From a virus, in UHGV virus genome UHGV-0135335: DNA of 24,559 bases; one strand, written 5' to 3'. The notes below the pieces were generated by a model. The model was not told the DNA's origin. It saw only the letters and a program-made list of their open reading frames with translations, and searched no databases. How positions within the stretch are numbered: the stretch's first letter is position 1; each line of letters opens with the position of its first letter. The translations under genes were made by a program, and so were the position numbers. Shown here in pieces: positions 12,359 through 24,559 of this stretch.

Positions 12359-12736
12359 ATGAAAGGACTTTTTTCCGCACTTGTTATGTGTGTTGCATTA
12401 ACTGGTTGTGTCCAACCTATGACAAAAGCTGAAGTTGATCGTGCAGTTTATGAACCGTTGCCTGCAGATTACCAAGAGCAAATAAAGTCAACGATTGAGC
12501 TTAGACTGAAAGATCCTGACTCTGCAAAATATCGGTTTTTCGACCCCAAAAAAGGATATACAGAGGGTACACGGCACTTTGGATTTGTAGTTCCCGTAGG
12601 TGTTAATGCAAAAAATAGCTATGGCGGATATACGGGTTATAAATTGTATTATTTCGTTTATTACAACCAATCATTCAAAGATGTCACCGAAGGCGTAGCA
12701 TGGGATGCAGTCAAATGGTCTGATGACGTCAAATAG
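12359..12736 (+). CDS. Lipoprotein moron (hypothetical secreted lipoprotein)
   Basis: SD GAGGG then ATG 12359. Signal peptide with lipobox LTGC (MKGLFSALVMCVALTGC). Visibly AT-richer than flanking tail genes. Followed by its own terminator. Confidence 0.6.
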   Translation: MKGLFSALVMCVALTGCVQPMTKAEVDRAVYEPLPADYQEQIKSTIELRLKDPDSAKYRFFDPKKGYTEGTRHFGFVVPVGVNAKNSYGGYTGYKLYYFVYYNQSFKDVTEGVAWDAVKWSDDVK

Positions 12737-13567: not shown

Positions 13568-14278
13568 ATGATGCTGAGCCAGCGATTGATTACCGCCATC
13601 CAGAAACACGCCGCGGAAGTGTACCCGCAGGAGTGCTGCGGGTTGATTATCCGCGCGACGCGGCAGCGCCGCTATATTCCCTGTGAAAACACCCACGATC
13701 AGCCCGCCGATTGTTTCCGGATCAGTGCTGAAGCCTGGGCGGATGCTGAGGACGCTGGCGAAGTGCTGGCGGTGGTGCATTCACATCCGGATGCAGGTCC
13801 GCATGCGTCTGCAGAAGACCTGAAGCAATGCCATGAAAGCGGCCTGCCGTGGGTCATCATGTCGTGGCCATCCGGAGAGCATACCGTTACCACGCCAGCC
13901 GATACACCGCCGCTGCTGAAGCGTCCTTTTATTCATGGCAGCTGGGACTGCTACGGGCTTATCCGTGACTGGTATAAGCAGGAGCGCGGTATCGATCTGC
14001 CCGACTTTGAGCGGACCGATAACTGGTGGACACGCGGCGAGAATCTCTACGTTCGGCACTATGCCGAGGCGGGGTTTTACTCGCACGCCAGCGAGCTGCA
14101 GCCGGGCGATATCATCCTGATGCAGTACAAGGCCGATGAAATTAACCATGCCGGCATTTACCTGGGGGACGGAAAGATGTTCCACCACATGTATGGCCGG
14201 CTGAGTGAAGTTGTTCCGTACGGCGGCATGTGGCGCGACCGTACGCTGTTAACGCTGAGGTATAGAGATGGGCAGTGA
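13568..14278 (+). CDS. Tail assembly protein K (lambda gpK-like; JAMM/MPN plus NlpC/P60 domains)
   Basis: JAMM motif HSHPDAGPHASAED (HxH-x7-S-xx-D). Downstream Cys (SWDCYG) and His (INHAGIY) are consistent with an NlpC/P60 fold. Confidence 0.85.
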   Translation: MMLSQRLITAIQKHAAEVYPQECCGLIIRATRQRRYIPCENTHDQPADCFRISAEAWADAEDAGEVLAVVHSHPDAGPHASAEDLKQCHESGLPWVIMSWPSGEHTVTTPADTPPLLKRPFIHGSWDCYGLIRDWYKQERGIDLPDFERTDNWWTRGENLYVRHYAEAGFYSHASELQPGDIILMQYKADEINHAGIYLGDGKMFHHMYGRLSEVVPYGGMWRDRTLLTLRYRDGQ

Positions 14279-14879
14279 ATCCCTTAATACCGTTGAGAAA
14301 GTCGTCCTGGTGCGCCTGTACGGCAAGCTGGGAATGTTATTTGGGCGCGAGCACCGGTTGTCCGTCTCATCCGTACGTGAAGCGATACGCGCGCTCTGCA
14401 TCATGATCCCCGGTTTCGAACTTTGGCTGGAAACAAGCCAGGATCGGGGGATCACGTACGCCATCTTTAACGGCGAACGCAATATCCGCGAGCAGGACCT
14501 GCAGCTGGATGGCGTACACGAAGTTATCCGCATTGCGCCGGTGATTATCGGCAGCAAGAAGAGCGGGATGTTCCAGACGGTTTTTGGTGCAGTACTTGTT
14601 GCCGTTGGGTTCGTTCTTAGCTTTACGCCGGCTATCGCCGCCTCGCCGTTTCTCTACAAAATGGGTGCCGCGATGATGCTGGGCGGCATAGCGCAGATGC
14701 TTGTTCCCGCCGGTACGCAGGGGATGACGACAGAAACGAAAGATACCCGCAAAAGCTACTCATTCGGTGCGCCGACGAACCAGGTGGCCGCGGGGAGTGG
14801 TGTTCCGATTCTTTACGGCATCCGTGAAATCGGCGGCGTACTGATTAGCGGCGGCATTTACGCCGAGGACCAGAACTAA
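14268..14879 (+). CDS. Tail assembly protein I (lambda gpI-like)
   Basis: 203-aa ORF overlapping the K stop. Hydrophobic C-terminal half with Gly-rich segments, in the expected K-I-J order. Confidence 0.75.
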   Translation: MGSESLNTVEKVVLVRLYGKLGMLFGREHRLSVSSVREAIRALCIMIPGFELWLETSQDRGITYAIFNGERNIREQDLQLDGVHEVIRIAPVIIGSKKSGMFQTVFGAVLVAVGFVLSFTPAIAASPFLYKMGAAMMLGGIAQMLVPAGTQGMTTETKDTRKSYSFGAPTNQVAAGSGVPILYGIREIGGVLISGGIYAEDQN

Positions 14880-14896
14880 AAGACCTTTATCCAATT

Positions 14897-14921
14897 ATCC
14901 CGCTTCGGCGGGATTTTTTTT
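14897..14921 (+). terminator. Terminator-like hairpin between I and J
   Basis: ATCCCGC-ttcg-GCGGGAT stem followed by TTTTTTTT. Confidence 0.6.
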
Positions 14922-14935
14922 GCCCGGAGTTAGCA

Positions 14936-17900
14936 ATGGAAATTACAGGCGCAAAAGGTGGCGGCGGCAGCGGAAGTAGCGATAAAGGCGAGAACCGCGG
15001 TACCGAGATCGCTTCAGTTGCTTACATGAAGATATTACTGGCGCTGACCGAGGGGGAAGCCGCCGGCGGATTCTCAGGCCAGGATATTTATCTCGATGGT
15101 ACGCCGCTGCTGGATGATTCCGGGAATGCAAACTTCCCAGGCGTTACCTGGGAATGGCGTAGCGGGACTGTCGACCAGCCATATATTTCCGGCTTTCCTG
15201 CTGTAGAAAATGAAGTGGCCGTTTCTACGGAGCTGAAGTACGGGACGCCGTGGGTTAAGTCGATTAACAACACGCAGCTCTCAGCCGTTCGTCTGCGCCT
15301 GAAATTCCCGAATGGCCTGTATGAACTGCGAGACTCAGGTGGGAAGAGTGGTTATACCGTTGAGTTTGCCATTGATATCTCAACTGATGGCAGTTCCTAT
15401 GTCGAATACGGGCGGGATACCGCAAGCGGTATTGCTAATAACGGCTATGAGCGTAGCTATCGAATTGAGCTGCCACCGGCGCAGACTGGCTGGCAAATTC
15501 GCGTAAGACGCCTTACACCAAACGCCAATGATGCCCGGCACGCCGATACATCCCGGATCGAATCGATAACCGATATCGTTGATGCCAAATTGCGGTATCC
15601 CCATACCTCGCTGCTGTTCGTCCAGTTCGATTCTCAGTTGTTCGATGGTCGTACGCCGACAGTAACGATAAAAATGAAGGGGATCATCGTTCGCGTTCCA
15701 TCGAACTATGACCCGATCAACCGGACGTATAGCGGTACGTGGGACGGGACGTTTAAATGGGCATGGACGAACAACCCGGCCTGGATTTTTTACGACATCG
15801 TGACGAATGCCCGGTACGGCCTTGGTCGCCGCATAACGACAAACCTCGTTGATAAATGGACGCTCTACCAGATTGCTCAGTACTGCGATGCGAAGGTTTC
15901 TGACGGCGCAGGAGGCACAGAAGCGCGTCATCTTTGTGACCTGTACATTTCACAGAGAACCGACGCCTGGACGGTCCTGATGGATTTGGCGGCGATTTTC
16001 AGGGGGATGATCAGCTGGTCGAATAATCTGCTTTCGCTTGATGCCGATATGCCGCGCGAGCTGGACCCGGACTTTGTCTTCAACAAGTCCAATATTGTCG
16101 GTTCGTTCAACTTCTCCAGCTCATCCGAGCGTACCAACTATTCTGCGGCGATAGTGACTTACAGCAACCCGAACAACGGCTACAACGATGATCAGGCCAG
16201 CGTTCACGTACCTGAAGTCTCTTCGCGATTTGGTTTCAATACGATGGAAATGACTGCCGTCGGCTGCACGCGCGAGAGTGAGGCGCAGCGCCGCGGGTTG
16301 TGGGGTATCGAGACGAACCGCGATGATAATGCGGTTGAGTTCAAAACAGGCATGGAAGGCCGTATTCCGAGGGTTGGCAAAGTGATCGGCGTGAATAACG
16401 CACCACTGGCCGGACGGGCGAACGGTGGCCGTGTAGCTGCAGCTGCAGGTACAAAAATCACGCTGGACAGAAATACCGTTGCCGTTCCCGGTAATCGCCT
16501 GATCATCAACCTGCCGACGGGAAAGGCCGAAGGACGAACGATTAAGTCAGTATCTGGCCGCGCGGTCACTGTGGAATCTGCATACAGCGTATTACCTAAC
16601 GCTGAGTCGGCGTGGGTAATTGACCAGCAGGATCTGGCCATCCAGTTATTCAGGGTTCGCCGTGTGGCCATCGGGAGTGATGACCTGGTAACAATATCCG
16701 GGTTGCCCTATAACCCGAACAAATTCGCGAAAATTGATGATGGCGCGATTGTCGAAGACCGTCCTGTGACCGTGGTCCCACCTGGTAGCCAGTCTGTACC
16801 AACGAACATTGAAATCACCAGTGAATACCGAATTGTTCAGGGGATAGGTATAAACACCCTGGTCGCGACATGGGACCCGGTGATAAACGCCATCGCCTAC
16901 GAGGTGCAATGGCGCCAGAATAGCGGCGACTGGATTAATGCAGGCAGGACAGGAAATACCCGAATTGAGGTCGACGGTATTTATGCTGGCCGTTATGTCG
17001 TCCGCGTTCGGGCCATCAACGCGATGGATGTTGCCTCGGTATGGGCAGTATCAAAGGAAGTCCAGCTGGATGGAAAAATCGGAAAGCCGCCCGTTCCTGT
17101 CAATTTGAGAACAACCCCGATGCTATGGGGTATTCGTATTGACTGGTCTATTCCCGCAGGAGCTGAGGACTCGCTCTATACGGAGCTGCAGTATGCGCAG
17201 GAACGCGACGGCAATACGGCGCTATTGCTGAGCAATATTCCATATCCGCAGTCCACATATTCACAGATGGGCCTTCGTGCAGGGCAGGAGTTCTGGTATC
17301 GGGCGCGTCTTATCGACAAGATAGGAAACCCATCGGACTGGACTGGATGGGAGCGCGGTATTTCAAACGATAACTCAGGTGATTATCTGGAGGGGATCGG
17401 TGATGGTTTCCTGACCTCAAAAGACGGTGACGCGTTGACGAGTCAGATTGACCAGAATATCGAGGGGATTCTACAAAATGCGCAGGCGAATAATGCCACC
17501 ATCGATCACCAGTGGAAGCAATATGGAGAGGTTCGCGCTGATATCCTGATTGTCAAAACGACAATTGCCGATGTTGATAAAGCGATGGCCGAGCTATCGA
17601 CGACAGTTCAGGCCCAGGTTGATGATATTACGGCCACGCTGGAAGATAAACTGACAGCGGTTGTCGATGCTGATGGCGCCTCAGCAATTCATACGCTGAA
17701 AGTCGGCGTAAGAATTGGCGACCAATATTATGGTGCGGGGATGTCCGTTGCTGTTATTGCGGATGCTGGTCAGCCAGTAATAACCAGAATTGGATTTAAC
17801 GCAAATCAGTTTGTGCTGATGAGTGGTCTGGACGATAAGCAATATTCACCGTTTGCAGTGATTAACGGTCAGGTATTTATCAGTAGCGCATTTATTCAGG

Positions 17901-18148
17901 ATGGCACAATTACCAATGCCAAAATTGGTAATTACATTCGAGGCAATGATTTTGTAAGTGGTGTTAATGGCTGGAATATTCCCAAGGATGGCACCCCTGA
18001 ATTTAATGGTGGCATTTTCCGTGGTGCTCTTTATGCATCATCCGGCGCATTCAGCTTTAACGGTGTGAATAATACTGTTGTGTTGAATGGTAATGGTGTG
18101 ACTGTAAACCTTCCAAACGGTGGCCGGATCGTTCTCGGCACATGGTAA
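14936..18148 (+). CDS. Host specificity protein J (central tail fibre / tip protein)
   Basis: 1070-aa ORF. The N-terminal 350 aa align by eye with lambda gpJ (for example VRVPSNYDP..RTYSGTWDGTFK versus lambda QVPSNYNPQTRQYSGIWDGTFK). The C-terminal region is divergent. Confidence 0.9.
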   Translation: MEITGAKGGGGSGSSDKGENRGTEIASVAYMKILLALTEGEAAGGFSGQDIYLDGTPLLDDSGNANFPGVTWEWRSGTVDQPYISGFPAVENEVAVSTELKYGTPWVKSINNTQLSAVRLRLKFPNGLYELRDSGGKSGYTVEFAIDISTDGSSYVEYGRDTASGIANNGYERSYRIELPPAQTGWQIRVRRLTPNANDARHADTSRIESITDIVDAKLRYPHTSLLFVQFDSQLFDGRTPTVTIKMKGIIVRVPSNYDPINRTYSGTWDGTFKWAWTNNPAWIFYDIVTNARYGLGRRITTNLVDKWTLYQIAQYCDAKVSDGAGGTEARHLCDLYISQRTDAWTVLMDLAAIFRGMISWSNNLLSLDADMPRELDPDFVFNKSNIVGSFNFSSSSERTNYSAAIVTYSNPNNGYNDDQASVHVPEVSSRFGFNTMEMTAVGCTRESEAQRRGLWGIETNRDDNAVEFKTGMEGRIPRVGKVIGVNNAPLAGRANGGRVAAAAGTKITLDRNTVAVPGNRLIINLPTGKAEGRTIKSVSGRAVTVESAYSVLPNAESAWVIDQQDLAIQLFRVRRVAIGSDDLVTISGLPYNPNKFAKIDDGAIVEDRPVTVVPPGSQSVPTNIEITSEYRIVQGIGINTLVATWDPVINAIAYEVQWRQNSGDWINAGRTGNTRIEVDGIYAGRYVVRVRAINAMDVASVWAVSKEVQLDGKIGKPPVPVNLRTTPMLWGIRIDWSIPAGAEDSLYTELQYAQERDGNTALLLSNIPYPQSTYSQMGLRAGQEFWYRARLIDKIGNPSDWTGWERGISNDNSGDYLEGIGDGFLTSKDGDALTSQIDQNIEGILQNAQANNATIDHQWKQYGEVRADILIVKTTIADVDKAMAELSTTVQAQVDDITATLEDKLTAVVDADGASAIHTLKVGVRIGDQYYGAGMSVAVIADAGQPVITRIGFNANQFVLMSGLDDKQYSPFAVINGQVFISSAFIQDGTITNAKIGNYIRGNDFVSGVNGWNIPKDGTPEFNGGIFRGALYASSGAFSFNGVNNTVVLNGNGVTVNLPNGGRIVLGTW
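16765..16780. other. Degenerate SopB-type palindrome (TGTGACCGTGGTCCCA, 15 of 16 match)
   Basis: One mismatch at position 3 relative to copy 2. Lies inside the J coding sequence. Confidence 0.35.
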
Positions 18149-18152
18149 TAAT

Positions 18153-19118
18153 ATGGCGAGTGGATTATTAATTGATTTAAATGATGGACGTCCTATGGCT
18201 ATTACCGCCGGACTCCGCGCCCCTGTATTCAGTACAGGGGTTGCGGGTGGGTATTATGGTGACGGAAACGAGGTTTCGTATATTGATACGCCTGGCTGGA
18301 ATGGAGGCTATGAATCGGTCTATATCCCCGTAGAAACCGTAGCCGCGTATGAAGTCGGAACGGACCTGTATCCCACGGTTGCCTATCTTACCAGCGTGAA
18401 TCAGGAATCAGGCCGCTTGCGTCTGACCTCCGGTTCAACCAGTGGGCGACCGCGCAGGCGAAATCTGTGGGCCGGTCAGGTCTGGTTTATCACGCCAGCC
18501 AGCCAGTCTGGTAACTCCGGGTTACTTATTCAGGATTCCACTGATTTCACCGTTATACCCACCAACGCCAACCTTGGAAGTTGTATATGGTATGGCGACG
18601 TTAATATAAACGGAGCCTGGAATATACCTGTTGATGGAATGGTATTCGCGTCCTGGGATAATCCCAGCGCGGTGTTATCACGGATGGGCAATACAATTTA
18701 TTGCACACTCGACCAGAATATTTATGAAGAAACCAGCGGGAATATTTGGGTACGCATTGCGATATTCGGGAATGCTGCCCCTTATGCCGGAACAGGGCTT
18801 AATTATTTCAACGCCGCAGGGCAATGCACTTTTTCAACTACCCGCAAACCTTTTGTGATTCAGGGCTTTTTCTACCCGTCGACTAACTGGCAGGGAATTG
18901 GCGGCATGGTCCCGCTCGGAACCTGTGGCTGGGCAGTACGGCCTGCCACCAACTCAACCAGCTGGAACATTGTCAGGATGAAAGGACTGATGATGTCAGG
19001 CGGCAACGTAAAGAGCGGTTTTGGCCGTATCGTCAGACGTGTTTCACGTCAGACCTTCGATATTCAGTCAGAGGGCGTATCGGGCGTAAAACTCCCCGTC
19101 ATCCCGAACTTTTATTAA
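18153..19118 (+). CDS. Hypothetical tail protein (Trp/Gly/Cys-containing; possible receptor-binding accessory)
   Basis: ORF between J and the tail fibre. The start is uncertain (GTG 18120 or ATG 18153) and neither has a strong SD. Confidence 0.5.
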   Translation: MASGLLIDLNDGRPMAITAGLRAPVFSTGVAGGYYGDGNEVSYIDTPGWNGGYESVYIPVETVAAYEVGTDLYPTVAYLTSVNQESGRLRLTSGSTSGRPRRRNLWAGQVWFITPASQSGNSGLLIQDSTDFTVIPTNANLGSCIWYGDVNINGAWNIPVDGMVFASWDNPSAVLSRMGNTIYCTLDQNIYEETSGNIWVRIAIFGNAAPYAGTGLNYFNAAGQCTFSTTRKPFVIQGFFYPSTNWQGIGGMVPLGTCGWAVRPATNSTSWNIVRMKGLMMSGGNVKSGFGRIVRRVSRQTFDIQSEGVSGVKLPVIPNFY

Positions 19119-19131
19119 TCAGGAGTAGGCA

Positions 19132-20454
19132 ATGTCTGCTGGAACTATTTCCATTCAAAATAATGCCGCGGCGGTGGCCGGCGATGGAACGGTATTTACC
19201 ACTGAATTATCCGCGGGTGATTTCATCGTTATTACCACAGGCGGGGTGACCTATACGCTGCCGGTGAAATCTATCGAGAGCGATACCGCACTGACTCTTG
19301 CCCAAAACTACAACGGCCCTGTGGTGACTGGCGCCGCATGGACGGCAATGCCGCGTGATACCCTGAACCGCATCAGTGCGCAGACTGCCGCAGATACATC
19401 GTATTTAGTTCGCCAGCGCGTTTTAGAGGTTGATAACTGGTATCAGCTGCTGGAAGTCAACGGCGATGTGACAATCAAAATGGCTGACGGTTCGAGCTAC
19501 ACTGGCCCCTCCTGGCTCAAGCTGATTGATGCCATGAACAACCCGACCTGGGCGCTGGCCAAAAGCAAAAACCTATCCGACCTGGAAGACCGCGATGAGG
19601 CATGGATGAATGTCCGCCCGACAGGCCCGACACCGCTGGCAGCGGCTCCTGTGGGTGAGGGGGACGCGGCGACAAAGGGATATGTTGATAATAAGAAAAT
19701 TGATATTGCGCACGGAGGAACCGGGGCGACGACAGAAGCGGGTGCCAGGGAAGCCTTAAAGCTATCATCAGCGGCAACAACTGAAATAGGGACCAGTGGT
19801 GCAAAACTTCCGCTTCTGAATGCAGCGAATACATGGGGCGCGACTCAAACTATAAAATCGCCAATAGTGGTCGCCGTCGATGGACCCGCCAGCCCGGCAT
19901 CAGGGCAGCTTATTAATAGTCCTGTGTTGAGAATGCGTGTTAACGGACGCGGTGCTAATGGCGATGCCCTTGGTGAAATTGGCGATATATTCATCCAGGA
20001 AAAAGTAGGTACATATGTCGCTTTAACATTTAATGTTAGCGCTTTTTCTGATAATAAATTCTGGAGCATGAATGCCTCAACGGGGGAAACCTTCTCGCCC
20101 CTTGGTGCTCTGGCAGTTCAGGGTTCGGACGTTCGTATCAAATACAATTTCACACCGCCAAAATTAGGGGCGTGGAAACGCGTAGAGGCAATCGGCATCT
20201 GCGAATATATGTATAACGGCAGCGCCATTCCGCAGCGTGGTTTTCTGGCACAACAGATGGGTGAAGTTGATGAGATGTATGTGTTCGAATCATCTGTCTC
20301 TACCGCGAAAGACGCGGACGGTAACGAATTCAACATTCTGAATGTCAATGACCGTGCTGTGATGGCGGATATGATTATCGTCATTCAGGCACTACAGCAG
20401 AAAGTTACGGCCCTGGAAGCACTGGTGGAGAAAATATCTTCAGGTAATAGTTGA
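19132..20454 (+). CDS. Tail fibre protein with C-terminal peptidase S74 intramolecular chaperone domain
   Basis: SD AGGAG then ATG 19132. The C-terminal 110 aa carry the S74 signature GSDVRIKYN ... GFLAQQMGEVDEMYVFES ... IIVIQALQQKVTALEALVEKI. Predicted catalytic Ser codon at 20125-20127. Confidence 0.75.
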   Translation: MSAGTISIQNNAAAVAGDGTVFTTELSAGDFIVITTGGVTYTLPVKSIESDTALTLAQNYNGPVVTGAAWTAMPRDTLNRISAQTAADTSYLVRQRVLEVDNWYQLLEVNGDVTIKMADGSSYTGPSWLKLIDAMNNPTWALAKSKNLSDLEDRDEAWMNVRPTGPTPLAAAPVGEGDAATKGYVDNKKIDIAHGGTGATTEAGAREALKLSSAATTEIGTSGAKLPLLNAANTWGATQTIKSPIVVAVDGPASPASGQLINSPVLRMRVNGRGANGDALGEIGDIFIQEKVGTYVALTFNVSAFSDNKFWSMNASTGETFSPLGALAVQGSDVRIKYNFTPPKLGAWKRVEAIGICEYMYNGSAIPQRGFLAQQMGEVDEMYVFESSVSTAKDADGNEFNILNVNDRAVMADMIIVIQALQQKVTALEALVEKISSGNS

Positions 20455-20484
20455 AAAAAAAACCGCCATGGAAGGCGGTTTTCT
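20454..20484. terminator. Bidirectional rho-independent terminator between convergent tail-fibre and sopB genes
   Basis: A-run, then CCGCC-atggaa-GGCGG stem, then T-run. Confidence 0.8.
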
Positions 20485-20490
20485 ATTAAA

Positions 20491-21672
20491 TCAAAGTATG
20501 TAGCGCTTGTTTATTTCATCGGCAATTTTCTTAATCCGCTCATTTTCAGTAGCTTCATCCTTCAGCACGGTTCTGGCGAACGGGATCAGGGCCAAAATTT
20601 CGTTGGCGGGAATATCGTATTCCAAGCCTGTAGCCGCAGCACGGATGTAGTTGGTCACATCATTAATTTCTAAAAATGCCTCATCCACTGCTTCACCAAC
20701 CGATTTTTGCTGCTCGGCCTGGTGAGCTTCCAGCAGTTCCTCAATCTTCTGTACTAACGCTGGCGGTACGTTGCTCAGTTGGAAGGATACAGAATCCCCC
20801 TTGTACTTCGCTTTTATCCCTTTACCAAACAGGCGTTCACGCATTGCAGGTTTTACTGGTTTTTGCGCCACCTGGTGTAGCTGGTCAAGAATGTCATCGG
20901 TTTCGAGCTGTTCACCAGCACGCTTACGCTTGGCCAGATGCTGAGCAAACGCAAACATCGCCTCTTCATTCTCGGCATAGGCTTTTGCCAGTGCCTCACC
21001 AGCTCGGGCGCTCAGTTCGTTAGGGTTACGGAACAGGCTAATAATTTCGCGTGGTAGCTCTGCCGTCTTCATGCAGCGGACGATAATTTTTCGGGAGATA
21101 TTCTCAGCTTCGGCCAGCTTGCTGACTGTACCGCCGAACTCATTGGCCAGACGGCGAGCATAGCGCTTTCCGCGCTCGTAAGAGCTGGTCTGCCGGTAGT
21201 CGTTCCCGATCTGTGATAGCCAGGCCATTTGTTCGTCGTCCAGCTCGCCGACGAGAACGCGGTATTCAGAGCTGGTGTAAATGGCTGTCTGGCGGCGGCG
21301 GCTACCGTCGGCCACTTCAATAATGCCAGAGATTTTACGGCCAAATGCTGGGTTCTGTTGCCCGGACGCGAGGAATGACGGGATCAGATCATCCAGCGCA
21401 TCTTTTGTCAGCAGTGCCTGGTCTCGTTCATTTCCGCCCCAGACCATGGTCGCCTTTTCCACCATGTTCGCATCGACGGTTTCCAGTTTGAACGACACAT
21501 CCCGCCCACAGACCGGAAGCGTGATATGGTTCCCGGTCATCCCGCGGACGCGTTCACTGAGGTTAGCCACCGCCGGCGCAGCTGGTTTATGCGCGTCATC
21601 ATGGCGTGGGACCGCGGTCACAGTGTCCAGATTGATTTGTGGTGCGTTTTTCATTACTGGTGCGCGTTTCAT
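20491..21672 (-). CDS. sopB: Partition protein SopB (ParB family)
   Basis: From MKRAPV the product aligns closely with F-plasmid SopB as recalled (LPVCGRDV, GNERDQ, DALDDLIPSF, ADGSRRR, YRVLVGELDDEQM, AENISRKII). ATG overlaps the sopA stop (ATGA). About 70 aa longer at the C-terminus than F SopB. Confidence 0.85.
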   Translation of the reverse strand: MKRAPVMKNAPQINLDTVTAVPRHDDAHKPAAPAVANLSERVRGMTGNHITLPVCGRDVSFKLETVDANMVEKATMVWGGNERDQALLTKDALDDLIPSFLASGQQNPAFGRKISGIIEVADGSRRRQTAIYTSSEYRVLVGELDDEQMAWLSQIGNDYRQTSSYERGKRYARRLANEFGGTVSKLAEAENISRKIIVRCMKTAELPREIISLFRNPNELSARAGEALAKAYAENEEAMFAFAQHLAKRKRAGEQLETDDILDQLHQVAQKPVKPAMRERLFGKGIKAKYKGDSVSFQLSNVPPALVQKIEELLEAHQAEQQKSVGEAVDEAFLEINDVTNYIRAAATGLEYDIPANEILALIPFARTVLKDEATENERIKKIADEINKRYIL

Positions 21673-22838
21673 TTGTTGTTCTCCCAGCGAGTAGCAATCA
21701 GGCGATCGTAAATTTCCCGGCAAACCGGCTCCCAGATAGCGACGGCATTGCGCCAGGCGGTAGGCGTGCTACGTTGGTTTGCAGCCTGCTCAAACACGGT
21801 GCGCATGCGTACCTGGCCTTTACCTACTTCGTCTGTTACGCGGACAACTTCCTTCAGCACCATGCCGCCCCAGGCGTTGCGGATCTGCTCATCCATCCAG
21901 GCAGATTGGTTGCCGACGGCTGTGCTGTATTTAGTTACCAGAACGCGGACATCAGGTTCAAAGCCGCCAAGGTCGACGTTGGCCATCAGGTCGCGAAGCA
22001 TCGTGAAGAACTGAAGAGAGGAAACGTAGTCGTACAGTTCAGCTGGTGTAGGCACAACGATCACATCAGCAGCGCATACGACGTTTATTGTGCCTATGCC
22101 GAGGTTTGGGGCGCTATCAATAACAATCAGGTCGTAGCTATCCCAGACAGACTCGATAGCGGCGCGCAGAAGCAGGTGAGATGCCACCGGCAAGCGACCT
22201 TCTTTCTCCAGTACCTCGATCTCTGATTCGATGCGGTGAATGGCCAGACAGGACGGGATGATATCGAGGTTCGGCCAGCAGGTTGGCTTAATCGCGTATT
22301 CAGCGTTATCACGTTCGCCCAGGTAGTACGGCAGCAGCGTATCTTCTGCGTGGATATGCAGATCAGGGACGTAGCCATGGTACAAACTGGCGGTTGCCTG
22401 TGGGTCAGTCGCATCAATCAGCAGAACGCGAAGGCCCTGCAGTGCAGCCCATTGCGCCATATGTACGCTGGTCGACGTTTTGTATGCGCCACCCTTATGC
22501 GCGGCAATAGCCAGTACAACCGGCGATTGGCCTTCAGGTCGAGACGGACGGGTACCAAAGTGATCGCGCATGGAGTTGATTTGCTCGATGGTATAGCCGG
22601 CACGTTGTGGAACGCGACCGCGAGTCACCATATCAGCCGGCGGCAGTCGCCCACCATCTTCTGCATTGCGAATAGATTGCGGTGTAACACCGATCAGCTC
22701 TGCCGCTTCAGTAATGCCCCAGCGGCGAGTGATGGCGCGAGACTCAGGGCTATCATCGCCAAATTGGGCCTGTGCGATAGCCATTGTCATGGCATGGCCA
22801 CGAGAAATCAGTTCATCCAAACGCGATTTTAAATTCAC
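21669..22838 (-). CDS. sopA: Partition ATPase SopA (ParA family, Walker-type)
   Basis: Aligns along its whole length with F SopA as recalled (AAHKGGAYKTSTSVH deviant Walker A, HAEDTLLPYYLGE, VIDSAPNLGIGTINVVCAADV, VFEQA). GTG start at 22838 is preceded by GGAGAG with a 7-nt spacer. The track ORF extends further, to TTG 22913. Confidence 0.85.
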   Translation of the reverse strand: MNLKSRLDELISRGHAMTMAIAQAQFGDDSPESRAITRRWGITEAAELIGVTPQSIRNAEDGGRLPPADMVTRGRVPQRAGYTIEQINSMRDHFGTRPSRPEGQSPVVLAIAAHKGGAYKTSTSVHMAQWAALQGLRVLLIDATDPQATASLYHGYVPDLHIHAEDTLLPYYLGERDNAEYAIKPTCWPNLDIIPSCLAIHRIESEIEVLEKEGRLPVASHLLLRAAIESVWDSYDLIVIDSAPNLGIGTINVVCAADVIVVPTPAELYDYVSSLQFFTMLRDLMANVDLGGFEPDVRVLVTKYSTAVGNQSAWMDEQIRNAWGGMVLKEVVRVTDEVGKGQVRMRTVFEQAANQRSTPTAWRNAVAIWEPVCREIYDRLIATRWENNK

Positions 22839-22856
22839 TTTCGTACTCTCCGGTAA

Positions 22857-22896
22857 CTTTGCGTAAAAACAGTAAAGCACCAAAAAAGACGCAAAG
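22857..22896. promoter_or_regulatory. Putative sopAB promoter/operator: CTTTGCGT ... ACGCAAAG inverted repeat
   Basis: 8-bp perfect inverted repeat with 24-bp spacing, 20-60 bp upstream of the sopA start. The CTTTGC hexamer is recalled as the SopA autoregulatory site in F. Confidence 0.45.
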
Positions 22897-22951
22897 CAAC
22901 ACAATTTATGCAAAATCCCTTAAAAAAAGATTTTCACAATGACAATCACAA

Positions 22952-22990
22952 CCGTACATCATACGGACAAAACATCCGTACAATGTACGG
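22952..22990. promoter_or_regulatory. Paired palindromes CCGTACAtcaTACGG and CCGTACA-A-TGTACGG (putative operator)
   Basis: Two inverted repeats sharing the CCGTACA half-site, 9 bp apart, in the sopA-TA intergenic region. Followed by the direct repeat TTGATTGA (22994-23001 and 23007-23014). Confidence 0.4.
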
Positions 22991-23232
22991 CTTTGATTGA
23001 CAAAAATTGATTGATGTGTGACCATATGAAGGTTGCAACGAGCTTCAAACATGTATTTAGTCAGTAAGCAATCTATTCATTCATTAGTTAAAGTATTGAT
23101 TTATTAAGAAAACAATAGAGGAATATTAAATGATCAGAGGAACAATCAATCGCGGGGCGGGCAGATACCGATGAACAAGATAAGGAGGCAACCCACTTAA
23201 AAACCAATGTTTGATTTTTGGAGATTTTGATT

Positions 23233-23553
23233 ATGAGAAACACCTACGTAAGTGGTGGTTCCGCAAACGTTGCTTTGGCCGGTGCCAAAGACACGCGCGT
23301 CGAGCTGCGAACCAGCGTCGACATAAAAGAGAAGTTACGAGCAGCCGCTTCTCTGGCTGGGGTAGACATGAGTTCGTTTATTTTGATGGCTGCTACACAG
23401 GCGGCACAGCGCGCTATTGATGCAGAACGCATGCGCGTAGTGACCGCAAGCGAGTGGGCACAACTAAATGAAATCCTGAATACCCCTCATCAGCCAGGCG
23501 ATAAGCTGCGAAACCTGATGACGAGGGAACCTAGGTATGAACGAAAGTACTGA
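23233..23553 (+). CDS. Type II antitoxin, DUF1778 / TacA-like (ribbon-helix-helix)
   Basis: 106-aa product with the usual DUF1778 pattern (LR.S...EKL..AA...G...S.FIL.AA). GGAG then ATG 23233. Overlaps the downstream GNAT gene by 17 nt. Confidence 0.7.
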   Translation: MRNTYVSGGSANVALAGAKDTRVELRTSVDIKEKLRAAASLAGVDMSSFILMAATQAAQRAIDAERMRVVTASEWAQLNEILNTPHQPGDKLRNLMTREPRYERKY

Positions 23554-24091
23554 TGTAAAAATGCAGTTGGTGAAGTGCGGCCCAGAAACAGAAATGAAAG
23601 GGGTAAAAGCCTTCGACTGCGGGGATAGTGTAATTAACAAGTTCGTCCCACAGCTAAAGCGGCAGTGTGGTCGTGACAACATCAACGCATTATTACTGCT
23701 TGATGGGGATAAAAACTTAGTAGGTTTTGCCACGGCCACGCTTTATCAGCTGGGGCGGGAGAGCATCCCGGAAGACACTTATCCGTACGCGCTTCCGCCT
23801 GCAATAGCGGTGATGAAAATCCCCATGATTGCCATCGATAAAAAACTACAAAGGCAAGGCTGGGGGCACGATATTTTACGTGCAATTCTTGATTACAGCG
23901 TCGAAAGCGCTGATTTAGTGAGGGGCATCAAAGGGGTTTACCTCGATGCAAAAATAGAGGCTCGATCGTTTTATGAGAGCTTCGAATTTAGGGCTACCAG
24001 CGAAAGTGTTAGCGAGCATGGCACTATCCCAATGCTTATCCCTATGGATATCCTCCGCGAGAGTCAGAAGAGCTGGGAGCAGTCTGCATAA
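23537..24091 (+). CDS. GNAT-family acetyltransferase toxin (TacT/KacT/AtaT-like)
   Basis: 184 aa with an acetyl-CoA-binding-like segment IAIDKKLQRQGWGHDILRAIL. Gene order is antitoxin then overlapping toxin. Confidence 0.7.
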   Translation: MNESTDVKMQLVKCGPETEMKGVKAFDCGDSVINKFVPQLKRQCGRDNINALLLLDGDKNLVGFATATLYQLGRESIPEDTYPYALPPAIAVMKIPMIAIDKKLQRQGWGHDILRAILDYSVESADLVRGIKGVYLDAKIEARSFYESFEFRATSESVSEHGTIPMLIPMDILRESQKSWEQSA

Positions 24092-24121
24092 AAGCGGCTG
24101 ACGCAAAAGCCAGGAATTAAC

Positions 24122-24149
24122 GAAAGAGCCACCTTTGGGTGGCTCTTTC
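24122..24149 (+). terminator. Strong hairpin after toxin gene (terminator-like)
   Basis: GAAAGAGCCACC-tttg-GGTGGCTCTTTC, a 12-bp perfect stem. The T-tract lies partly within the stem. Confidence 0.5.
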
Positions 24150-24261
24150 GGTTCTGGGTAGCCAAATACAACGTACAGCGCGAAGCGCTGTGGAAGCATA
24201 AGATAAATCAAAACAGCACCAAAAGGTGCAATGTTGATATGAGTGGCTAAAAGCGACAATA

Positions 24262-24526
24262 CGTAACATTATGTTTTTAAATAAAAATAATTGAATATCA
24301 CATAAACTTAGTTAAGCGAATTGGCCATCATAACACGCTGATTCAATATCCTCTTTTATTCATTCAATATCGGCTGGAAATACGCCGTCATTAACGTAAC
24401 ATAATACAAATATGAAATAGTGATATTTCAGAATTCAATAACACTTCATATTATTGCATTAAAAAACCCGTCATCTCGCCGCACAACAATCATCGTAACA
24501 AATAATAAATAAATAACATCGTAACA
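24262..24526. repeat. AT-rich non-coding region with CGTAACA x4, CATCGTAACA x2, ATTCAATATC x2 and palindrome TGAAATA-gtga-TATTTCA
   Basis: Direct reading: CGTAACA at 24262, 24395, 24494 and 24520; ATTCAATATC at 24341 and 24363; palindrome at 24413-24430. No ORF of 60 aa or more. Confidence 0.5.
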
Positions 24527-24559
24527 CATTATAAATATCGACACATCATACTAATATCG

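What the first reader, a model, noticed from the sequence alone, without database searches (positions are those of the whole stretch)
18153..19118. Unassigned 320-aa protein between J and the tail fibre, with a weak start context
No family is recognised. Both candidate starts lack a good SD and the ORF overlaps the end of J, suggesting translational coupling or reinitiation. The product is Trp/Gly-rich with several Cys. Its position suggests a host-range accessory or fibre-assembly function.
Basis: inference. Interest (0 to 1): 0.4.

Follow-up and report, generated by a model that had tools for sequence, protein, structure and literature searches.

The report
LptD-type receptor-binding protein after J
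The "unassigned" gene after the tail-tip gene J belongs to a known family of phage receptor-binding proteins, one member of which has been solved bound to the bacterial LPS-export channel LptDE, so it is an ordinary but correctly placed host-range gene.

Summary
The ORF is real: ATG 18153 to stop 19118, 321 aa. It is under strong purifying selection. The protein matches Pfam DUF6453 (E 2.7e-76) and phrog_1265. It aligns end to end (35% identity, E 1.9e-41) with PDB 9RPT chain C. That chain is the receptor-binding protein (RBP) of coliphage Oekolampad, solved bound to the outer-membrane LPS translocon LptDE. An AlphaFold model finds only that structure (Foldseek E 3.7e-16, TM 0.88).

The gene sits at the known RBP locus directly downstream of gpJ. 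The last ~42 residues of J carry the motif seen in the two J proteins of LptD-type phages compared (Oekolampad, EC3a), but not in the J of FhuA-type T1. The last 40 codons of J, the RBP and the side fibre recur at 96% DNA identity behind an unrelated J. They therefore behave as a mobile host-range cassette.

The real start is ATG 18153, 4 nt after J's stop, so it does not overlap J. Its Shine-Dalgarno is weak. A tight stop-start junction is conserved in all relatives, which is consistent with translational coupling.

LptD binding in this host (probably Kluyvera) is inferred, not shown. No Rtp45-like exclusion lipoprotein is present in the window. Verdict: a new member of a known kind, of low interest.

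The parts
18153..19118 (+). Gene for the 321-aa receptor-binding protein (DUF6453, LptD-type RBP family). The start is ATG 18153.
   Evidence: Pfam PF20051 E 2.7e-76. phrog_1265 E 3.9e-78. PDB 9RPT_C E 1.9e-41, aligned 1-321 to 1-321. 35% identity to the Oekolampad RBP and 38% to the EC3a RBP, both full length. AF2 model pLDDT 81, pTM 0.84. Foldseek finds only 9rpt_C, E 3.7e-16, TM 0.88. dN/dS is 0.04-0.07, and there are 0 nonsynonymous against 34 synonymous differences versus L002.
18149..18152 (+). 4-nt junction (TAAT) between J's stop codon and the RBP start. It holds a second in-frame TAA. No usable SD lies upstream.
   Evidence: Sequence. Junctions of 1-4 nt in L002-L006, and overlapping or 2-nt junctions behind the exclusion-lipoprotein gene in Oekolampad and EC3a. 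SD duplex energy -2.9 kcal/mol.
18023..18148 (+). 3' end of J, encoding the last ~42 residues (RGALYASSGAFSFNGVNNTVVLNGNGVTVNLPNGGRIVLGTW). This is the inferred docking tail for the RBP.
   Evidence: The motif is shared with J of Oekolampad and EC3a (LptD-type) and diverges in T1 J (FhuA-type). The stretch is identical in L002 J, whose remainder is at most 37% identical. The DNA identity block with L002/L003 starts at 18029.
14936..18148 (+). J-like central tail fibre / tip attachment protein, 1070 aa.
   Evidence: Pfam FNIII-A_GpJ, Phage-tail_3 and Phage_Tail_Tip. phrog_31 central tail fiber J.
19132..20454 (+). Lateral tail fibre of 440 aa with a C-terminal S74 intramolecular chaperone domain. 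It is part of the same exchanged cassette.
   Evidence: phrog_1980 tail fibre E 5e-70. Peptidase_S74 at 22.1 bits against a cut-off of 22. 96% DNA identity to L002 up to 20433.

Best explanation
The ORF encodes the phage's dedicated terminal receptor-binding protein (RBP).

Expression. It is transcribed with J and the side fibre in the late operon. It is translated from ATG 18153, probably at a low level by ribosomes that have just terminated on J. This would fit the small amount of RBP needed relative to J.

Assembly. The conserved 'base' of the protein comprises the N-terminal ~25 residues plus segments ~113-142 and ~206-234. This base docks non-covalently onto the C-terminal ~40-residue tail of the J trimer at the tail tip.

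Receptor binding. The variable loops at the opposite end of its two beta-sandwiches insert into an outer-membrane protein of the host. By homology, that protein is the LptD barrel of the LPS translocon LptDE. This binding would give irreversible adsorption and trigger DNA ejection. The 440-aa lateral fibre encoded downstream would make the first, reversible contact with surface glycans.

Shown here: family membership, fold, locus position, the matching J tail, cassette transfer and purifying selection.

Inferred: docking to J, LptD as the receptor in this host (probably Kluyvera), translational coupling, and stoichiometry.
For: Family, fold and locus:
- Pfam DUF6453 at 257 bits.
- Full-length alignment to 9RPT chain C, E 1.9e-41, with 35% identity. 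That chain is the Oekolampad RBP solved on open LptDE (PMC12685063).
- Foldseek finds 9rpt_C as the only significant PDB hit, E 3.7e-16, TM 0.88.
- Four unrelated RBP families at the locus downstream of gpJ track FhuA, BtuB, LptD and YncD, each defined by >30% identity and >99% coverage (bioRxiv 10.64898/2026.04.02.716166; PMC8594841). This protein meets that criterion against two members.
- The LptD-type RBPs named in the papers read are only 33-39% identical to one another. Oekolampad (structure and resistance mutants), AugustePiccard (resistance mutants) and OzMSK (LptD mutant strains) have experimental support for LptD use. For Rtp it is inferred from 96% identity to the AugustePiccard RBP.

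Docking to J:
- The J C-terminal motif matches the two LptD-type J tails compared (Oekolampad, EC3a) and not T1.
- The J tail, RBP and fibre are 96% identical in DNA behind an unrelated 903-aa J.
- 25 of 34 invariant columns fall in residues 1-25, 113-142 and 206-234. These are the three tail-proximal segments unresolved in the cryo-EM map (methods passage).

Expression and selection:
- dN/dS is 0.04-0.07.
- The tight stop-start junction is conserved and the SD is weak.
- There is no promoter or terminator between J, the RBP and the fibre.
Against: - No binding or infection data exist for this protein or its host.
- The receptor-contacting loops are the least conserved part of the family (PMC13035648). 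Receptor identity therefore cannot be read from sequence with certainty.
- The cognate Rtp45-type exclusion lipoprotein, which flanks the RBP gene in the two lytic phages examined (Oekolampad, EC3a), is absent from the window and from L002-L006.
- Gene orientation differs from those two lytic phages. Here the gene is co-directional with J; there it is convergent with J.
- Closest phage relatives are only 35-39% identical.
- The J-tail comparison uses two LptD-type phages and one FhuA-type phage only.
- Translational coupling is inferred from geometry only.
Confidence: 0.75

Rival explanations
1. It has the same fold and the same role as a tip RBP docked on J. However, its diverged tip loops recognise an outer-membrane receptor other than LptD in its own host.
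For: The loop regions are poorly conserved: mean majority fraction 0.43-0.56 outside the base segments. Identity to verified LptD binders is only 35-38%. No Rtp45-like LptD-directed exclusion lipoprotein is present. The host is probably Kluyvera rather than E. coli.
Against: LptD-type members as divergent from one another as this protein is from them (33-39%) are reported or predicted to use LptD. The other receptor classes at this locus use unrelated protein families. T1 ST31/ST32 show no similarity to this ORF.
Confidence: 0.17
2. It is a membrane protein or moron, as the PHROG and GenBank labels say, acting in the lysogen rather than in the virion.
For: phrog_1265 is labelled 'membrane protein' under the moron category. 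Many GenBank records copy that label.
Against: There is no hydrophobic segment: the maximum Kyte-Doolittle 19-residue mean is 0.98. The predicted fold is all-beta and soluble. The recombinant homologue is a soluble protein that binds the extracellular face of LptDE. The gene lies inside the late tail operon with no promoter of its own.
Confidence: 0.03
3. It is a tail-fibre assembly chaperone or accessory for the downstream 440-aa fibre.
For: The gene lies immediately upstream of the fibre gene and travels with it in the cassette.
Against: The fibre has its own S74 intramolecular chaperone domain. In Oekolampad and EC3a the homologue is not adjacent to, or co-oriented with, the fibre gene. Chaperones usually lie downstream of their fibre. 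The solved homologue is a receptor binder.
Confidence: 0.03

Closest known systems
RBP of Escherichia phage Oekolampad (Bas18; bas18_0025; PDB 9RPT/9RPW/9RQI chain C)
   Same: Both are 321 aa and align end to end at 35% identity. The predicted fold is the same (TM 0.88). The N-terminal motif M-x-x-G-[IL]-L-I-D-x-N-D-G-R-P is conserved. Each sits at the locus next to gpJ, and the J C-terminal tail motif is the same.
   Different: In Oekolampad the gene is convergent with J and is preceded by the exclusion lipoprotein gene bas18_0026. Here it is co-directional with J, 4 nt after J's stop, and no such lipoprotein is present. Oekolampad is a virulent Dhillonvirus. This element looks like a temperate plasmid prophage.
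Rtp44-type RBP of Drexlerviridae (Rtp, AugustePiccard; here compared through EC3a gp47)
   Same: 38% identity over the full length. Both are DUF6453 and lie at the gpJ-adjacent locus.
   Different: In EC3a the RBP is paired with an Rtp45-like lipoprotein gene that overlaps the RBP start. That gene is absent here.
FhuA-type RBP locus of T1 and N15 (T1 ST32/ST31, noted as similar to N15 gp22/gp23, plus cor)
   Same: It occupies the same genomic position, directly downstream of a lambda-like J in the late operon. N15 and phiKO2 share the SopA/SopB partition context seen in this window.
   Different: The proteins are unrelated, with no significant BLAST similarity. The J tail differs, and T1 and N15 carry the Cor exclusion protein.
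T5 pb5 on the pb3/pb4 tip, with the Llp exclusion lipoprotein
   Same: The logic is the same: a separate monomeric RBP is attached non-covalently to the central fibre tip. Its tail-proximal part is disordered when bound to the receptor (PMC12685063).
   Different: The fold and sequence are unrelated, and the receptor is FhuA.

Membership tests
Pfam PF20051 (DUF6453) / phrog_1265 | The profile HMM score is above the curated gathering threshold over the full length. | tested here: met
   257.1 bits against a cut-off of 25, covering residues 4-295 of 321. phrog_1265 E 3.9e-78 over residues 1-321.
LptD-targeting RBPs of small siphophages | [quoted passage not shown] This is the operational definition in bioRxiv 10.64898/2026.04.02.716166. 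| tested here: met
   35% identity over 1-321 to the Oekolampad RBP. 38% identity over 1-321 to the EC3a RBP.
LptD-targeting RBPs of small siphophages | A double beta-sandwich fold that superposes on the solved RBP (9RPT chain C). | tested here: met
   AF2 model pLDDT 81, pTM 0.84. Foldseek E 3.7e-16, probability 1.00, TM (target) 0.88. The next hit has E 0.28.
LptD-targeting RBPs of small siphophages | Encoded at the hypervariable locus adjacent to the 3' end of the gpJ homologue. | tested here: met
   The ATG is 4 nt after J's stop codon. The position is the same in L002-L006.
LptD-targeting RBPs of small siphophages | A J C-terminal tip of the type that accompanies this RBP class. | tested here: met
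   The motif RGxLYAxxGxFxFxG...GxxVxLPxGGRxxxGxW is shared with J of Oekolampad and EC3a and not with T1. Only these three phage J tails were compared.
LptD-targeting RBPs of small siphophages | An adjacent Rtp45/SE-Oeko-type exclusion lipoprotein. This is typical rather than strictly defining. | tested here: not met
   tblastn and an HMM built from the two lipoproteins find nothing in the window or in L002-L006; the best E-value in the window is 0.1 (tblastn) or 0.69 (HMM). The only lipobox ORF (12359-12736) is unrelated.
LptD-targeting RBPs of small siphophages | Physical binding to LptDE, or lptD-dependent infection. | not testable with these tools
   This needs purified protein with host LptDE, or resistance mapping. 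It is inferred only from homology.

The most novel reading that the evidence does not exclude
The last ~40 codons of J, the LptD-type RBP gene and the side-fibre gene form a self-contained, horizontally mobile host-range cassette. It can plug into unrelated siphophage tail tips: it is found at 96% DNA identity behind a lambda-like 1070-aa J and behind a 903-aa J of a different tail module.

Here the cassette sits in a temperate plasmid prophage of the N15/phiKO2 type that lacks the known LptD-directed exclusion lipoprotein. Lysogens would then either have no receptor-level exclusion or use an undescribed factor.

If so, the ~40-residue J tail would be the minimal adaptor needed to retarget a siphophage to the essential protein LptD.
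Probability: 0.3. Interest if true: 0.45.

Novelty: new member of a known kind. Interest (0 to 1): 0.2.

Why it matters
This assignment corrects a blank annotation. The gene is the likely primary host-range determinant of this prophage, and it probably targets the essential LPS translocon LptD.

The natural recombinant described here puts a breakpoint about 40 codons before the end of J. That gives a concrete guess at the minimal J-RBP adaptor, which could help in engineering receptor specificity. It also agrees with a recent statistical hint that the GpJ C-tip goes with the RBP type.

Beyond that, the gene is an ordinary member of a family whose structure and receptor were published in 2025.

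Tried and rejected
- Megablast of the ORF region against phages found nothing. The whole window gives only ~74% matches in head and tape-measure genes to Klebsiella and Enterobacter phiKO2-like plasmid prophages. Nucleotide-level relatives in annotated collections were therefore of no help.
- NCBIfam has no model for the protein.
- I searched for an Rtp45/SE-Oeko-type exclusion lipoprotein by tblastn, by a two-sequence HMM and by a lipobox regex. None was found.
- The one lipobox ORF (12359-12736) was considered as a possible alternative exclusion factor. It is absent from the other loci that carry the RBP and has no annotated relatives, so no link could be made.
- The Citrobacter phage HCF1 hit to RBP residues 1-34 was examined as a possible shared N-terminal adaptor on another RBP type. 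It is only a short remnant in an unverified assembly, so I dropped it.
- I searched for inverted repeats that might explain the inverted fibre fragment in L003. There are none at the junctions.
- I looked for a telRL-like palindrome at the window's 3' end. Nothing convincing turned up.
- The J-tail tblastn was blunted by the low-complexity filter and gives only qualitative support.
- The GTG 18120 start and the 'membrane protein' label were both rejected.

Full report
**1. The observation**

The window carries a lambda-like morphogenetic operon. It runs from terminase, portal, protease and capsid genes through the tape measure, M, L, K and I to a 1070-aa J at 14936-18148. The flagged ORF follows J. 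A 440-aa tail fibre follows at 19132-20454, and convergent ParB/ParA (SopB/SopA-type) genes come next.

The ORF from ATG 18153 to the stop at 19118 is 321 aa, not 320.

The SD is weak. Duplex energy with the anti-SD is -2.9 kcal/mol for ATG 18153 and +0.7 for the in-frame GTG at 18120. The other ATG-started head and tail genes scored give -4 to -12.

The overlap with J exists only for the GTG start. With the ATG there is a 4-nt gap, TAAT, which contains a second in-frame stop for J.

**2. The family is recognised**

- Pfam gives PF20051 (DUF6453) at E 2.7e-76, 257 bits against a cut-off of 25.
- PHROGs gives phrog_1265 at E 3.9e-78 over the whole length.
- A search of PDB sequences gives a single hit, 9RPT/9RPW/9RQI chain C, E 1.9e-41, aligned 1-321 to 1-321.

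[quoted passage not shown] The deposited chain is 327 aa because of a C-terminal His6 tag. The native protein, bas18_0025, is 321 aa like this one.

Direct BLASTP gives 35% identity to the Oekolampad RBP and 38% to the homologue in the Braunvirinae phage EC3a. Both alignments are end to end.

An AlphaFold2 model built from 20 homologues has mean pLDDT 81 and pTM 0.84 and is all-beta. Foldseek against the PDB returns 9rpt_C as the only significant match (E 3.7e-16, probability 1.00, target-normalised TM 0.88). The next hit has E 0.28.

tblastn finds the family in 436 phage records, mostly Drexlerviridae, Dhillonvirus and Klebsiella weberviruses. None is above 39% identity.

**3. What the family does, according to the literature**

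Maffei et al. (PMC8594841) showed that small siphoviruses carry allelic 'bona fide RBP loci' next to the gpJ homologue. These alleles match the terminal receptor, LptD among them. They also showed that lptD mutations confer resistance.

A 2026 preprint (10.64898/2026.04.02.716166) reports four unrelated protein families at this locus. [quoted passage not shown] It adds that the C-terminal tip of GpJ is itself a specificity-associated feature, possibly for structural compatibility with the RBP.

Black et al. (PMC13035648) note that the invariant residues of LptD-type RBPs map to the base, which holds the N-terminus, rather than to the receptor-binding loops.

The LptD-type RBPs discussed in these papers are only 33-39% identical to one another. 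This ORF is as close to them as they are to each other.

**4. Evidence from this window and its relatives**

*(a) The start codon.* Of the 19 homologues aligned, 18 begin at the Met equivalent to 18153, with M-x-x-G-L-L-I-D-L-N-D-G. P0002 is the exception. It carries a 12-residue upstream extension that looks like a mis-called start. Oekolampad and EC3a begin at the same Met, although the gene upstream of theirs is a lipoprotein gene rather than J. The recombinant Oekolampad protein starting at that Met binds LptDE. ATG 18153 is therefore the start.

*(b) The junction.* In every locus examined the ATG lies 1-4 nt from, or overlaps, the stop of the upstream gene. No promoter-like or terminator-like site separates J, this ORF and the fibre. 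Termination-reinitiation coupling is a reasonable but untested inference.

*(c) Selection.* Against the copy in L002 there are 34 synonymous and 0 nonsynonymous differences. Against two Kluyvera copies (93% and 90% amino-acid identity) dN/dS is 0.044 and 0.071.

*(d) Conservation pattern.* 25 of 34 invariant alignment columns lie in residues 1-25, 113-142 and 206-234, with mean majority fractions of 0.72-0.83 there against 0.43-0.56 elsewhere. These are the three segments that were unresolved in the cryo-EM map and had to be modelled. [quoted passage not shown] My model is also least confident at 119-133. I read these segments as the surface that docks on J and the variable remainder as the receptor-binding end.

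*(e) The J tail.* The last ~42 residues of J are RGALYASSGAFSFNGVNNTVVLNGNGVTVNLPNGGRIVLGTW. They align with the J tails of Oekolampad and EC3a. The FhuA-type phage T1 diverges over the same stretch. This comparison covers only those three phage J proteins.

*(f) Cassette transfer.* The identical 321-aa protein occurs on three other contigs.
- L004 is the same element as the window (99.9% identity over 14019-24559).
- L002 and L003 have a different tail-tip module, with a 903/904-aa J preceded by a DUF6950 protein.
- That J is only 37% identical to the window's J over the C-terminal half and barely alignable before it.
- Even so, the DNA is 96% identical from window 18029 (40 codons before J's stop) through the RBP gene to 20433 near the end of the fibre gene.

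The J tail, the RBP and the side fibre have therefore moved together between unrelated tails. This is what is expected if the J tail is the RBP's adaptor.

**5. Context and host**

The partition genes and the ~74% nucleotide matches to Klebsiella and Enterobacter phiKO2-like plasmid prophages suggest an N15/phiKO2-type plasmid prophage. No protelomerase lies in the window, so this stays an inference.

The closest genomic copies of the RBP are in Kluyvera, which is the likely host genus.

At the same position, T1 has the unrelated proteins ST32 and ST31 plus Cor. The T1 annotation describes them as similar to N15 gp22 and gp23. phiKO2 instead has a giant J and no separate RBP. The window thus carries the LptD-type allele of a known polymorphic locus.

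**6. What does not fit the lytic-phage pattern**

In Oekolampad and EC3a the RBP gene is convergent with J. It is preceded by a small exclusion lipoprotein gene of the Rtp45 / SE-Oeko type. Here the gene is co-directional with J. No homologue of that lipoprotein is found in the window or in L002-L006.

The only lipobox ORF in the window is 12359-12736. It has low GC and sits between M and L. It is unrelated and does not co-occur with the RBP. The exclusion gene may lie in the unseen half of the prophage, may be absent, or may be of a new type.

**7. Rivals**

- A different receptor with the same architecture cannot be excluded, because the loops are variable. I give it about 0.17.
- The 'membrane protein' label is not supported. 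There is no hydrophobic segment (maximum KD19 0.98), and the homologue is soluble.
- A fibre-chaperone role is unlikely. The fibre has its own S74 chaperone domain, and gene order in the lytic relatives does not couple the two genes.

**8. Verdict**

It is a new, fairly divergent member of the DUF6453 / LptD-type RBP family. It lies at the expected locus in what appears to be a temperate plasmid prophage.

The mechanistic assignment as a tip RBP docked on J is well supported. LptD as the receptor is a homology-based inference. The cassette breakpoint 40 codons before the end of J is a useful small addition. Interest is low.

Noticed in passing
window 12359-12736 (+): A 125-aa lipoprotein gene (MKGLFSALVMCVALTGC..., lipobox LTGC) is inserted between tail genes M and L. 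Its GC is 0.40 against 0.53 for the window. It matches phrog_2320 (unknown function) and no Pfam family, so it looks like a moron. It is absent from the other RBP-carrying loci.
   Followed up: partly
window 23218-23553 and 23537-24091 (+): An overlapping gene pair lies beyond the start of parA, on the opposite strand. It encodes a TacA-like antitoxin (Pfam TacA1, E 2.4e-17) and a GNAT acetyltransferase (TacT-like toxin). It is probably a plasmid-prophage addiction module.
   Followed up: partly
window 14897-14914 (+): A strong terminator-like hairpin (ATCCCGCTTCGGCGGGAT followed by T7) lies between tail gene I and J, inside the late operon. T1 has an annotated terminator at the equivalent place.
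   Followed up: no
L003 1491-2528 (-) versus window 19395-20433: In contig L003 the 3' two-thirds of the side-fibre gene lies inverted about 4 kb upstream of the tail-tip genes, and only the 5' 121 codons follow the RBP. No inverted repeats flank the junctions. This is either a 5.4-kb inversion or a misassembly.
   Followed up: partly
window 22940-23002: A 28-nt imperfect inverted repeat (82% complementary, 7-nt spacer) lies just upstream of the parA start. It may be a partition operator or promoter site.
   Followed up: no
L002 7285-9996 and L003 4020-6734: A 903/904-aa J-like protein belongs to a different tail module, preceded by a DUF6950 protein. It ends in exactly the same 40 residues as the window's lambda-like J. 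This shows recombination inside the 3' end of J.
   Followed up: yes
L008 (Citrobacter phage HCF1) 3001-3102: Only the first 34 codons of a DUF6453-type RBP remain (82% identity to Oekolampad), next to an enlarged J gene. This may be a decayed RBP locus in an unverified assembly.
   Followed up: partly
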